From NCBI RefSeq assembly GCF_009914755.1, contig NC_060930.1: DNA of 64,000 nt. The stretch is one strand, 5' to 3'. Position numbers and translations under genes: made by a program. Under the pieces are notes generated by a model. It was not told where the DNA came from. It did not search any database and was given only the letters and a program-made list of their open reading frames with translations. Shown one piece after another: positions 43,191 to 59,619 of the stretch; the stretch's first letter is position 1; each line of letters starts with the position of its first letter. Origin of the DNA: the human T2T-CHM13v2.0 reference genome, Homo sapiens.

Positions 43191-45128
43191 ATCTTTTCTA
43201 CTTCCCATTTAGCACATAAATAACTTTTTTTCCATTGCTAGCAAATATATTGTGTTAGCTGATATCTTTTTTTATCTTTTGTGAGCTTTTAAAAAAAACT
43301 ATAATAGGACATCAGTTGCAGAAGGACTGAAGTTGATGGCAATGAGTACCAGCAACCGTGCATAAAAGTTTATATTTCCAAGGAGTCAGGAGAACAAGAA
43401 AAAATGTTCATGTTAAAAAATCAGTAAGTTATATTTAACAGTCTCCAGATGGATTTGCAAGTAGTTCCATTTTTACCTTCAGATTTCCAGCTACCATTTT
43501 GTGAAAATATAGTATAAATATATGGGTTAATTAAGCCTCAGATTTAGCTGGCTATTAGTCTAAGTTGCAGGAGTTCACACTTTTTCTCAATTCTTTCATC
43601 CTGCCTGGCTCCTGGCTCAACAGTGGGCATGAGTTTACATTGGCAATTATATGCTCCCCACTAGAACTGCTGGAAACCTCACTTATATTAAAAACAGGGA
43701 TTCTGAATTAAATAAGAACCACTAACTCTGACATGCTGAGAGTTCATATCTGGATAAATCAGATTTTCTTGTCCTTTAATTCTTGAAATTTTTAACATGT
43801 CCAATCCTCCAGCTAAAATACCATTCACTATATTTCTATAAATCCACTTACTTAAATCCTTTTATTAGAGTTGGCATACTTAGGTCTTTTGTGAATTGCA
43901 ATTCTTTTTTAAAAAATCAATGAAACAGCACCTGAGCATAATTTCCACTACATGCATTTAAATAATGTGAAATTAATTTACATTTCATTGCCAGCCTTAG
44001 TTTAAAAATACCTTTATTATTTTATAAAAGTTATACAATAATATACATTTGGTCATGAGAAATCTTTTGAATTATTTTTAAAGATGATATGCACCATCCA
44101 TCAATTGTAATTGATACATAAAAAATCTAAATTTACCCAAAAAAGCCAAGTGAAGAGAAGTACTCACATTACAAAAGCAGTCAAACTAGGGACCTGTTAA
44201 ATATCTTGTTCCTATTATGCGATTTATCAAAATGTGATTTACCTACTATATTTTCCTGCAAAATATATATATATGAATACATATATTAAGCTGTGTCTCT
44301 TTATGCCATCATAATTAAATTGCCAAAGAAAAGCATTTATTTCTTCAGTCTAAACTGTGATAAATTTTATAACAGGTACTGTAATGATGGAATTGGGTAA
44401 CAAAATATACTCTAAAATTATAAATATTATCTGCCCTGAAAAATCAAGAGGCTTCAAAATTTAGAATTACAAAAATAAATATTTACATGTTATTATGCTA
44501 TCAGCAAAATATTTTTAATTACTTTCATTTAAAAATGTTTACAGATATAGAGAACAAAACAAACAGGGTTGGCAGAGGAAGTGTGGAGATGTAGGTCAGA
44601 GAATACAAAGTAGATGACATAGGATGAAGAAGTCTAGCGATCCAATGTACAACATGAAAACTGTAATAAAATTTTACTATATTTGGGATTCAAACTAAAT
44701 CAGTAGATTTTGTAGCTCTTGTAGCACACACAAAAAATGGGAAGCTATGGGAGGGAGGAGCCAAGATGGCCAAATAGGAATAGCTCCGGTCTACAGCTCC
44801 CAGCGTGAGCAACGCAGATGATGGGTGATTTCTGCATTTCCAACTAAGGTACTGGGTTCAACTCACTGGGGAGTGCCAGACAGTAGGTGCAGGACAGTGG
44901 GTGCAGTGCACCGTGTGAGAGCTGAAGCAGGGTGAGGCAATGCCTCACCCAGGAAGCACAAGGGGTCAGGGAATTCCGTTTCCTAGTCAAAGAAAGGGGT
45001 GACAGATGGTACCTGGAAAATCAAGTAACTCCCACCCTAATAGTGTGCTTTTCCATCAGGCTTAAAAAATGGCACACCAGGAGATTATATCCCACATCTG
45101 GCTTGGAGGGTCCTATGCCCACAGAGTC

Positions 45129-45203
45129 TCACTCATTGCTAGCACAGCAGTCCGAGATCAAACTGCAAGGTGGCAGCAAGGCTGGGGGAAGGGCGCCCAC
45201 CAT
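45129..45203 (-). pseudogene. Truncated L1 ORF0 remnant
   Basis: MVGALPPALLPPCSLISDCCASNE* matches the ORF0 N-terminus; stop after 24 codons. Confidence 0.7.
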
Positions 45204-45527
45204 TGCCGAGTTAGTTGTTTGATTAGGTAAACAAAGCGGCCGGGAAGCCCGAACTGTATGGAGCCCACCACAGCTCAAGGAGGCCTGCCTGCCTCTGTAG
45301 GCTCCACTCTGGGGGCAGGGCACAGACAAACAAAAAGACAGCAGTAACCACTGCAGACTTAAATGTCGCTCTCTGATAGCTTTGAAGAGAATAGTGGTTC
45401 TCCCAGCATGCAGCTGGACATCTGAGAGCGGGAAGACTGCCCCCTCAAGAGGGTCCCTGACCGCCGAGTAGCCTAAATGGGAGGCACCCCCGAATAGGGG
45501 CGAGCTGACACCTCACATGGCCGGGTA

Positions 45528-58400: not shown

Positions 58401-59305
58401 AAAACCCTAGAAGAAAACCTAGGCAATACCATTCAGGACATAGGCATGGGCAAGGGCTTCATATCTAAAACACCAAAAGCAATGGCAACAAAAGCCAAAA
58501 TTGACAAATGAGATCTCATTAAACTAAAGAGCTTCTGCACAGCAAAAGAAACTACCATCAGAGTGAACAGGCAACCTACAGAATGGTAGGAAGTTTTTGC
58601 AACCTACTCATCTGACAAAGGGCTAATATCCAGAATCTACAATGAACTCAAACAAATTTACAAGAAAAAAACAAACAACTCCATCAACAAGTGGGCAAAG
58701 GATATGAACAGACATTTCTCAAAAGAAGACATCTATGCAGCCAACAGACACATGAAAAAATGCTCATCATCACTGGTCATCAGAGAAATGCAAATCAAAA
58801 CAACAATGAGATATCATCTCACACCAGTTAGAATGGCAATCATTAAAAAGTCAGGAAACAACAGGTGCTGGAAAGGATGTGGAGAAATAGGAACACTTTT
58901 ACACTGTTGATGGGACTGTAAACTAGTTCAACCGTTGTGGAAGACAGTGTGGTGATTCCTCAGGGATCTAGAACTAGAAATACCATTTGACCCAGCCATC
59001 CCATTACTGGGTATATACCCAAAGGATTATAAATCATGCTGCTATAAAGACACATGCACACGTATGTTTATTGCATCACTACTCACAATAGCAAAGACTC
59101 GGAACCAACCCAAATGTCCACAATGATAGACTGGATTAAGAAAATGTGGCACATATACACCATGGAATACTATGCAGCCATAAAAAATGATGATTTCATG
59201 TCCTTTGTAGGGACATGGATGAAGCTGGAAACCATTATTCTCAGCAAACTATCGCAAGGACAAAAAACCAAACACCGCATGTTCTCACTCATAGGTGGGA
59301 ATTGA
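55480..59305 (+). pseudogene. L1 ORF2 of copy B, disrupted
   Basis: Stop at codon 11 (ATA TAA), EN motif SDH reads SDD, multiple stops; FADD retained in ORF 57435-57896. Confidence 0.9.
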
Positions 59306-59619
59306 ACAATGAGAACACTTGGACACAGGAAGGGGAACATCACACACTGGGGCCTGTTGTGGGGGAGTGGGAGGGGGGAGGGGTAGCATTAGGAGATATA
59401 CCTAATGTAAATGACAAGTTAATGGGTGCAGCACACCAACATGGCACATGTATATATATATAACAAACCTGCACGTCATGTACATGTATCCTAGAACTTA
59501 AAGTATAATAAAATATACATATATAGAAAAGAAAACTTGTTCTGTGCCATAGTGAAAAATTCTACTATAATGAGTGATATGCTAAAAAAAAAAAAAAAGA
59601 CATACAGAAATGCTTGAGT

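What the first reader, a model, noticed from the sequence alone, without database searches (positions are those of the whole stretch)
44750..59596. Two independently inserted L1s of different subfamilies share private mutations, including a nonsense codon: local gene conversion
Seen: copies A (44750-52291) and B (54022-59596) have different TSDs, flanks and 3'UTR diagnostics (aatgctaaatg/ctaaaactt versus aatgtaaatg/ctagaactt). Yet 51149-51352 and 58383-58586 read identical over about 204 bp and both carry aagGGCttcATAtct and aaaTGAgatCTCatt (stop at 51275 and 58509). The other local copies have GAC and TGG here (for example 41860-41940 and 48350-48420). More shared oddities recur along both copies: KPT (46519/55135), KGT (47161/55780), gcaaagatct, DDMTVY with gcAcaa (50350/57590), aaacAacaatgagatAtc. 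Older-type states (gccaacagacac, ctggtcatc) appear in A and the younger-type cctgagaaaaac appears in B. Knowledge: L1 cis-preference makes an ORF2-dead common parent unlikely. Inference: patchy, possibly bidirectional non-allelic conversion between direct copies 7-9 kb apart, which are also an NAHR deletion substrate.
Basis: partly seen in the sequence, partly recalled or inferred. Interest (0 to 1): 0.8.

Follow-up and report, generated by a model that had tools for sequence, protein, structure and literature searches.

The report
Neighbouring dead L1s exchanged sequence patches
Two long-dead L1 retrotransposons that inserted separately about 7 kb apart on human chromosome 6 later copied short stretches of sequence into each other, including a stop codon; this is a clear but ordinary case of gene conversion between nearby repeats.

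Summary
The core observation holds. A (44750-52291) and B (54022-59596) are separate L1 insertions with different target-site duplications. They are 93.4% identical overall but share a perfect 204-bp stretch. The GGC-ATA-TGA haplotype in that stretch occurs only twice in the whole T2T genome, in A and in B.

Compared with 59 other genomic copies, A has younger-type flanks and B older-type flanks. Between 50975 and 51441 both carry A's type plus A's private changes, so A converted B. Between 51443 and 51598 both carry B's lineage states, so B converted A. The two tracts abut and have the same residual divergence (about 1.3-1.5%, against 7.5% outside). In this segment A and B are sisters (SH-aLRT 98) with end branches 4-8 times shorter than in the flanks.

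Several supporting details do not hold:
- TGA alone recurs in 494 copies.
- CTC is common.
- 'KGT' is a subfamily state, and 'KPT' occurs 29 times.
- No conversion is shown in the 5' half.

Best reading: ectopic gene conversion in both directions, several million years old and possibly one repair event. The mechanism is already known for Alu and L1, so interest is modest. Ape orthologues and long reads could not be checked.

The parts
44750..52291 (+). L1 copy A: full length, with younger-type ('X') diagnostic states in its flanking parts. Target-site duplication GGGAAGCTATG at 44739-44749 and 52297-52307.
   Evidence: layout and duplications; X-type at 50968/71/74, 51705, 52115, 52170, 52257
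48057..49437 (+). Separate 3' L1 fragment C nested in A (48057-49424), followed by the second copy of its own target-site duplication AAATGATAAAGGG (48044-48056 and 49425-49437). Not part of the exchange.
54022..59596 (+). L1 copy B: 5'-truncated (begins at A position 45405), older-type ('Y') flanks. The L1 body ends near 59513. About 70 bp of non-L1 sequence (59514-59582) and a poly(A) follow. Target-site duplication AAGACATACAG at 54011-54021 and 59597-59607.
   Evidence: Y-type states; the extra 3' stretch is unique in the genome
50975..51441 (+). Tract T1 as it lies in A, which is native here and is the donor. Holds A's private 51222G, 51229A and 51277A (the TGA codon).
   Evidence: A-B differences: 7 events in 467 bp. 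A carries the X-type pattern at 50984, 51007, 51017, 51369, 51409, matching its flanks.
58209..58679 (+). Tract T1 as it lies in B, the recipient. B carries A-type states and A's three private variants here. B's relatives L018, L022, L061, L062 and D have other states.
   Evidence: the three-variant haplotype occurs only in A and B genome-wide
51149..51352 (+). The 204-bp stretch of perfect A/B identity inside T1 (B: 58383-58586). In-frame TGA at 51275-51277 and 58509-58511.
   Evidence: best other genomic copies differ at 3 or more sites
51443..51598 (+). Tract T2 as it lies in A, the recipient. A carries B-lineage states 51477T, 51495C, 51507C, 51509G and 51539T, plus 51564A and 51576T. Of the 59 comparison copies, 51564A is in none and 51576T is in 1 of 26 old copies but 18 of 29 young ones.
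   Evidence: 2 differences in 156 bp. All 10 X-group copies have A at both 51507 and 51509. L061 and L062 (Y-type flanks) share five of the states.
58681..58836 (+). Tract T2 as it lies in B, which is native here and is the donor.
50337..50399 (+). Candidate further short tract (B: 57572-57634). 63 bp identical, with two shared rare variants, 50357C and 50388A.
   Evidence: 0 of 19-20 old panel copies carry either variant. A and B are the only 100% hits of 40 scored among 1034 candidates, while 24 copies lie one mismatch away. Suggestive only.
58587..58593 (+). Three B-private substitutions within 7 bp (A positions 51353, 51356, 51359), directly after the 204-bp identical core. Read as a clustered mutation after the conversion.
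   Evidence: 0 of 57 panel copies have them. The 29-mer is unique genome-wide at up to 1 mismatch. Clumping P = 0.003.
46467..46616 (+). 150-bp identical run at the end of ORF1 (B: 55083-55232), holding the 'KPT' variant. Not shown to be a conversion tract.
   Evidence: A and B are the only 100% hits, but 6 copies differ by 1 base. The KPT 29-mer occurs 29 times genome-wide. My estimate, made from the difference counts and not run as a test, gives about 0.06 for a run this long by chance.

Best explanation
After two L1 elements of different subfamily type had inserted independently about 7 kb apart in the same orientation, homologous repair between them copied sequence without changing copy number.

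- About 470 bp of A (50975-51441) overwrote B. This carried A's own decay mutations into B: GGC, ATA and the TGA stop.
- The directly adjoining 156 bp of B (51443-51598 in A coordinates) overwrote A. This carried older-subfamily and B-specific states into A.
- Both copies were already non-functional, so the exchange is neutral.
- The tracts have since gained about 10 differences. That places the event at roughly one fifth of the elements' age, of the order of 4-15 million years depending on the substitution rate assumed.

Shown: the shared unique haplotype, the mosaic subfamily pattern, the drop in divergence and the sister grouping limited to this segment.

Inferred: the direction of each tract, the age, and that both tracts come from one double-strand-break repair event.
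For: 1. Independent insertions. A and B have different target-site duplications, B is 5'-truncated, and B has a unique 3' tail.

2. Divergence. There are 13 differing columns (10 events) in 628 columns of 50975-51598, against 150 in 2009 columns (7.5%) in the rest of the 3' 2.6 kb. Poisson P = 5e-9.

3. Uniqueness. The pattern requiring GGC, ATA and TGA together matches 2 places in the 3.1-Gb genome, A and B. In the similarity search, A and B are the only 100% hits of 40 scored among 1304 candidates, and the next best differs at exactly those three sites.

4. Mosaic pattern.
- At 50968/50971/50974, A reads GGT (X-type) and B reads AAC (Y-type).
- At 50984, 51007, 51017, 51369 and 51409 both read the X pattern. 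The pure Y copies L018 and L022 read C, C, A, T, A. L061 and L062 read Y states at four and five of these sites.
- At 51507 and 51509 both read C and G, the Y pattern. All 10 X-group copies have A at both sites. The younger copies have A in 29 of 29 and 26 of 29.
- From 51705 on, A is X and B is Y again.

5. L061 and L062, the nearest genomic copies in T2, have Y-type flanks. They share 51477T, 51495C, 51507C, 51509G and 51539T with A and B. Those states are therefore native to B's lineage.

6. Trees. In 50975-51598, A+B is a clade (SH-aLRT 98) with end branches 0.005 and 0.010. In both flanks A and B are not sisters and their end branches are 0.038-0.041. Three and six changes are observed where 25 are expected: P = 4e-8 and 6e-6.

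7. The two tracts have equal residual divergence: 7 of 467 and 2 of 156 (Fisher P = 1.0).
Against: - AU tests do not reject an A+B clade in the flanks (left p = 0.184, log-likelihood difference 15.7; right p = 0.488, difference 1.2). The incongruence rests on branch lengths and diagnostic sites, not on a formal topology rejection.
- The comparison panel is small and selected. 28 old copies were picked for likeness to the 204-mer and 29 mostly very young copies for likeness to A. Only 40 of 1000-24000 candidates were scored per search.
- Y-group states at 50984, 51007, 51017, 51369 and 51409 are not fixed (for example C4/T3 and A5/C3). The A-to-B direction of T1 is therefore probable, not certain.
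- Identity runs of 204 or more occur in 9 of 397 other old-copy pairs. All nine fall to 86 or less (0 of 397 reach 204) when 51149-51352, the region the panel was picked on, is excluded.
- TGA alone is recurrent (494 copies).
- No reads, second assembly or ape orthologue was available.
Confidence: 0.88

Rival explanations
1. A and B descend from one minor L1 source lineage that already carried the shared variants. The sharing would then be inherited at retrotransposition, not exchanged afterwards.
For: - Some shared states are lineage states: KGT, CTC, and 51477T, 51495C, 51539T.
- AU tests do not reject an A+B clade in the flanks.
Against: - The flanks carry opposite diagnostic states.
- Inheritance cannot explain end branches 4-8 times shorter in 50975-51598 only.
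- No third copy has the GGC-ATA-TGA haplotype.
- A source with an in-frame ORF2 stop would have had to be mobilised twice by proteins from another element. That this is rare is established knowledge of L1 cis-preference (recalled).
Confidence: 0.03
2. Assembly or polishing artefact: reads from one copy were used to correct the other in T2T-CHM13.
For: - The two copies are close together and similar.
- I could not examine reads or a second assembly.
Against: - The affected segment is not a clean identical block. It holds 10 scattered differences, including two at CpG sites and a private triple substitution, as expected after an old biological event.
- It has opposite donor directions in two abutting parts, which mis-polishing would not readily produce.
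- The flanking 6-7% divergence should let long reads map uniquely (inference).
Confidence: 0.04
3. Chance: parallel mutation at hot spots plus a locally conserved stretch of ORF2.
For: - Each variant alone recurs elsewhere (TGA in 494 copies; KPT in 29).
- ORF2 differs less between subfamilies than the UTRs do.
Against: - My estimate of shared rare sites expected by chance in 2.7 kb is under 1 (2.5% private sites in each copy). Nine are observed, clustered in three low-divergence patches.
- None of GGC, ATA or TGA is at a CpG.
- A-B has the lowest 378-column window of 398 pairs, even though the panel was picked for few changes in exactly this region.
Confidence: 0.02

Closest known systems
Non-allelic gene conversion between neighbouring Alu elements
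   Same: Independently inserted retroelement copies exchange short tracts. As a result their subfamily states and private mutations no longer match their insertion history. The rate is reported to be higher for copies less than 10 kb apart (passages read in PMC6598467, which cites Aleshin and Zhi 2010 and Kass et al. 1995). Here the copies lie about 7 kb apart.
   Different: The partners here are 6-kb L1s and the tracts lie in 3' ORF2. The tracts (about 470 and 156 bp) are longer than a whole-Alu comparison can resolve. Both directions are seen at one site.
L1-L1 gene conversion: repair of a break in a chromosomal LINE from other LINEs, and intrachromosomal conversion within human L1 loci
   Same: L1 sequence serves as template to repair another L1. 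Sen et al. 2007 (PMC1920257, passages read) infer an intrachromosomal conversion that placed a 377-bp L1 segment into another L1 locus. They cite Tremblay et al. 2000 for break repair by endogenous LINEs in mouse cells (seen in the reference list only).
   Different: Those cases are one-way. Here donor and recipient roles switch at about 51442. Both partners are identified, with genome-wide uniqueness of the transferred haplotype.
Interlocus gene conversion between segmental duplications or duplicated genes
   Same: Tracts of raised identity, a sister grouping limited to the tract, and dependence on distance and identity. Harpak et al. 2017 and Mansai et al. 2011 were seen only as entries in reference lists (PMC7827986, PMC6598467).
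   Different: The paralogues here arose by separate retrotransposition, not by duplication. Background divergence is therefore high (about 7%) and the subfamily markers reveal the direction of transfer.
Canonical double-strand-break repair model with heteroduplex on both duplexes (Szostak et al. 1983; recalled, not read here)
   Same: The model predicts heteroduplex on the donor duplex on one side of the break and on the broken duplex on the other side. After mismatch correction, that can leave two abutting tracts of opposite direction and equal age. This is the pattern seen at 50975-51441 and 51443-51598.
   Different: Only the end product is seen. Two independent events of similar age cannot be excluded.

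Membership tests
Non-allelic (ectopic) gene conversion between dispersed repeats | The partners are paralogous copies of independent origin, not one duplicated segment. | tested here: met
   The target-site duplications, 5' ends and 3' tails differ. Overall identity is 93.4%.
Non-allelic (ectopic) gene conversion between dispersed repeats | A bounded tract whose divergence is far below the background between the two copies. | tested here: met
   13 of 628 columns differ, against 150 of 2009 outside. P = 5e-9. A-B has the lowest 378-column window of 398 pairs.
Non-allelic (ectopic) gene conversion between dispersed repeats | Derived variants shared by the two partners and absent from the rest of the family. 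| tested here: met
   GGC-ATA-TGA matches only A and B in the genome. 51564A occurs in 0 of 55 panel copies and in neither L061 nor L062. Single variants are recurrent.
Non-allelic (ectopic) gene conversion between dispersed repeats | Phylogenetic incongruence: the partners are sisters in the tract and not in the flanks. | tested here: inconclusive
   In the tract, A+B is a clade with SH-aLRT 98. In the flanks they are not sisters, but the AU test does not reject a forced clade (p = 0.184 and 0.488). Diagnostic sites and end-branch lengths do show the contrast.
Non-allelic (ectopic) gene conversion between dispersed repeats | No crossover: both copies and the sequence between them are retained. 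| tested here: met
   Both elements keep their own duplications and flanks, and the spacer 52308-54010 is present.
Non-allelic (ectopic) gene conversion between dispersed repeats | The pre-conversion state is seen in an outgroup orthologue or in a polymorphic haplotype. | not testable with these tools
   No other primate genome, human assembly or read set was available.
Shared L1 subfamily or source-lineage diagnostic states | The shared states occur together in many other copies of the family. | tested here: not met
Not met for T1 (2 of 2 matches are A and B).
Single double-strand-break repair event with heteroduplex on both duplexes | Two abutting tracts of opposite direction and equal age. 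| tested here: met
   The direction switches between 51409 and 51450. Residual differences are 7 of 467 and 2 of 156, Fisher P = 1.0. This fits the model but does not prove it: two separate events would look the same.

The most novel reading that the evidence does not exclude
The two abutting, opposite-direction, equal-age tracts are the fossil of one germline double-strand-break repair between repeats about 5-7% diverged. Heteroduplex formed on both partners, on opposite sides of a break near 51442, and was corrected towards the incoming strand on each. This would be a natural record of a two-sided recombination intermediate in the human lineage. The triple substitution at 51353-51359 could then be repair-associated mutagenesis.
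Probability: 0.4. Interest if true: 0.5.

Novelty: new member of a known kind. Interest (0 to 1): 0.3.

Why it matters
This is a well-resolved example showing that old, inactive L1 copies a few kilobases apart still pair and exchange sequence. That has four practical consequences:
- Subfamily calls and age estimates for single L1 copies can be locally wrong.
- Inactivating mutations can spread between copies without retrotransposition, so a shared stop codon does not imply a dead parent.
- Such pairs are proven recombination partners, and so plausible substrates for deletion.
- The abutting two-way tracts give one data point on how ectopic repair proceeds between diverged repeats in the human germline.

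None of this changes current understanding. Gene conversion between transposable elements is established.

Tried and rejected
- **Panel bias.** The first panel of the nearest copies to A's 3' half turned out to be mostly very young L1s, about 99% identical to each other. The 16 'shared rare' sites it gave in 46558-48056 were therefore rejected as evidence. One search shows 11 other copies at 97% to A there, and B is not among the 40 scored.
- **Parent of B.** I searched for it through the 76-bp stretch after B's L1 end. The only hit was B itself.
- **The 103-bp run 46675-46777.** The search returned nothing, not even the query itself, because common words are skipped. This is uninformative.
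- **PRDM9-like 13-mer** (motif recalled from memory). None lies near the tracts; the nearest are at 52128 and 49265 on the minus strand.
- **Third-copy donor for B's triple substitution.** None found.
- **First identity-run control.** 5 of 461 pairs at 94.5% identity or less, A-B included, had runs of 204 or more. I judged this unfair because many pairs involve young, hardly mutated copies, and replaced it with old-copy pairs.
- **Not done.** The GENECONV program was not available; permutation, window, painting and tree tests were used instead.
- **Further panels.** No old-copy panel exists for the 5' half.
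Full report
**Layout**

The window is human chr6 (T2T-CHM13), with no annotated gene.

- **A (44750-52291).** BLAST of B against the window and the junction sequences show a full-length L1 flanked by GGGAAGCTATG (44739 and 52297).
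- **C, nested in A.** A separate 3' L1 fragment (48057-49424) interrupts A and has its own duplication, AAATGATAAAGGG (48044 and 49425).
- **B (54022-59596).** A 5'-truncated L1 that begins at A position 45405, flanked by AAGACATACAG (54011 and 59597).
- **B's 3' tail.** Between B's L1 end (about 59513) and its poly(A) lie about 70 bp of non-L1 sequence with no other match in the genome.

A and B are therefore independent insertions in the same orientation. Homologous positions lie about 7.2 kb apart.

**The observation**

- 51149-51352 and 58383-58586 are identical at 204 of 204 bases.
- The shared TGA is in the ORF2 frame.
- With C removed, A and B align over 5495 bases with 363 mismatches and 40 gap columns, 93.4% identity.
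- The longest identical runs are 204, 150, 122, 103 and 94 bp.

**Are the shared variants private?**

The window's own genome could be searched.

- With the 204-mer, A and B are the only 100% hits among 40 scored of 1304 candidates.
- The next best copy differs at exactly three sites: GGC/GAC, ATA/ATG and TGA/TGG.
- CTC is shared with many copies.
- The 26-mer holding TGA occurs 494 times (248 forward, 246 reverse). The stop alone is therefore a recurrent decay mutation.
- A pattern that requires GGC, ATA and TGA together matches only 2 places in 3.1 Gb, A and B.

**Comparison copies**

| Panel | Loci | How chosen | Nature |
|---|---|---|---|
| P1 | L003-L030 | best hits to the 204-mer | 28 old copies |
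| P2 | L032-L060 | best hits to A's 3' half | mostly very young L1s, about 99% alike |

P2 is useful only as a 'young state' reference. 'Shared rare' sites scored against P2 in 46558-48056 are therefore not evidence. One search shows that other copies carry most of them.

Scored against P1 over 49650-52291:
- A has 68 private sites and B has 67, about 2.5% each.
- Nine sites are shared and rare: 50357, 50388, 51277, 51477, 51495, 51539, 51564, 51576 and 52179.
- 51222 and 51229 are held at 6 of 28 only because P1 was selected on them.
- The shared rare sites fall in three patches that are also poor in private differences.

**Direction**

I grouped P1 by three 3'UTR markers. This gave a younger-type group X (10 copies; A belongs to it) and an older-type group Y (10 copies; B belongs to it).

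At the 30 sites where the groups differ:
- A is X at 23, Y at 6 and neither at 1.
- B is Y at 17, X at 10 and neither at 3.

| Region | A | B |
|---|---|---|
| 50968, 50971, 50974 | X (GGT) | Y (AAC) |
| 50984, 51007, 51017, 51369, 51409 | X | X |
| 51507, 51509 | Y | Y |
| 51705, 52115, 52170, 52257 | X | Y |

The remaining off-type calls are scattered, and some are weak. For B they are 49677, 50292, 50448, 50818 and 51724. For A they are 50292, 52081, 52108 and 52275.

A mismatch-tolerant search with the 100-mer 51471-51570 found 24 places within 3 mismatches: A at 0, B at 1, two copies at 2 and twenty at 3.
- The two nearest were fetched as L061 and L062. They have Y-type states at the left and right flanks and across T1.
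- They still share 51477T, 51495C, 51507C, 51509G and 51539T with A and B.
- Those states are therefore native to B's lineage and foreign to A.
- Conversely, in 50975-51441 B departs from L061, L062, D, L018 and L022 and matches A. This includes 51230 and 51374.

Hence:
- **T1 (50975-51441; B 58209-58679): A to B.** It carries A's private GGC, ATA and TGA.
- **T2 (51443-51598; B 58681-58836): B to A.** It carries B's lineage states plus 51564A and 51576T. Of the comparison copies, 51564A is in none. 51576T is in 1 of 26 old copies but 18 of 29 young ones.

The T1 direction is probable rather than certain, because the Y states there are not fixed within the Y group.

**Statistics**

- In 50975-51598, 13 of 628 columns differ (10 events). 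In the rest of the 3' region, 150 of 2009 differ. P = 5e-9.
- A permutation gives P = 3.5e-4 for a run of 204 or more.
- Among 397 other old-copy pairs, 9 have runs of 204 or more. All nine fall to 86 or less when 51149-51352, the region P1 was selected on, is excluded. There the maximum over all 397 pairs is 175.
- The minimum number of differences in any 378-column window is 2 for A-B. The best other pair has 3, and the commonest values are 9-12.
- An ML tree of 50975-51598 (45 rows, 628 columns) joins A and B with SH-aLRT 98 and end branches 0.005 and 0.010.
- In the left (1324 columns) and right (683 columns) flanks A and B are not sisters, and their end branches are 0.038-0.041.
- The AU test does not reject a forced A+B clade there (p = 0.184 and 0.488).
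- The branch-length drop is itself significant (P = 4e-8 and 6e-6). Inheritance from a common source cannot explain it.

**Age, and one event or two**

- Residual differences are 7 events in 467 bp in T1 and 2 in 156 bp in T2, which are indistinguishable.
- The summed end branches in the tract are about 0.015, against about 0.08 in the flanks. The exchange therefore dates to roughly one fifth of the elements' age.
- With recalled neutral rates of 0.5-1.7e-9 per site per year, that is of the order of 4-15 million years.
- With 10 events in 624 bp, a longest clean gap of about 180 bp is expected by my estimate. The 204-bp perfect stretch therefore does not indicate a very recent event.
- Two abutting tracts of opposite direction and equal age are what the canonical break-repair model predicts when heteroduplex forms on both duplexes (recalled knowledge). 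I rate a single event at about 40-50%. Two events of similar age cannot be excluded.
- Three B-private changes within 7 bp, just after the identical core, are clumped (P = 0.003) and unique in the genome. They remain unexplained and may be one clustered mutation.

**Other claimed shared oddities**

- 'KGT' (47101-47194): three other full-length copies are 100% identical. It is a subfamily state.
- 'KPT' (46467-46616): A and B are the only 100% hits, but 6 copies are one mismatch away and the 29-mer occurs 29 times. By my estimate a 150-bp run is not significant there.
- 50337-50399, with 50357C and 50388A: A and B are the only 100% hits of 40 scored among 1034 candidates, and 24 copies are one mismatch away. 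This suggests a further short tract.
- A's Y-type states at 52081 and 52108 may mark another short patch. Unresolved.

**Rivals**

- A shared source lineage fails on the opposite flanks, on uniqueness and on branch lengths.
- Chance fails on the counts above.
- An assembly artefact cannot be excluded without reads. It fits poorly with scattered differences inside the tracts and with two donor directions.

**Literature**

- Gene conversion between transposable elements is established. For Alu, higher rates below 10 kb are reported (PMC6598467, passages read).
- An intrachromosomal conversion of a 377-bp L1 segment, and break repair from endogenous LINEs, are reported or cited in PMC1920257 (passages read).
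- PMC7827986 (passages read) notes that recombination confounds L1 subfamily annotation.
- I searched four times and found no description of this locus. That does not show that none exists.

**Verdict**

This is a real and well-supported ectopic gene conversion in both directions between two neighbouring dead L1s. It is a new example of a known process.

Noticed in passing
window 59514-59582: About 70 bp of non-L1 sequence lie between B's L1 3' end and its poly(A), inside the target-site duplication. This looks like a 3' transduction. The stretch has no other match in the genome, so no parent locus was found.
   Followed up: partly
window 48057-49437: A 1.37-kb 3' L1 fragment with its own 13-bp target-site duplication is nested in A's ORF2. 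It is about 92.6% identical to B and carries younger-type 3'UTR markers.
   Followed up: partly
window 58587-58593 (A 51353-51359): Three B-private substitutions lie within 7 bp, exactly at the end of the 204-bp identical core. The motif is unique genome-wide and the clumping has P = 0.003. Possibly one clustered or repair-associated mutation.
   Followed up: partly
window 58297 (A 51063): A B-private G-to-A change inside tract T1 creates a further in-frame TAG in B. It arose after the conversion.
   Followed up: no
window 50292 / 57527: At this one diagnostic site the types are swapped: A has the older-type base and B the younger-type base. It could be a coincidental transition or a trace of another exchange.
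   Followed up: no
window 1442-5545 (-), 21448-22171, 23818-25045, 60022-61604 (-), 40457-41072, 41812-42925: Further L1 fragments in the window. Four are old (70-77% identity to B). Two are primate-type 3' ends (91.6% and 87.4% to B).
   Followed up: no
(search tables): Most genomic hits to A's 3' half were reported only up to query base 1916, which is window 51353, the end of the identical core. Most hits to B's 3' half began at query base 256. Local BLAST aligned the same loci right through, so this is probably an effect of the search tool. I did not explain it.
   Followed up: partly
L033-L060: For long old-L1 queries, the best-scoring genomic hits are very young L1 copies, about 99% identical to each other. 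They carry few decay mutations. This biases any nearest-neighbour panel for an old repeat copy.
   Followed up: yes
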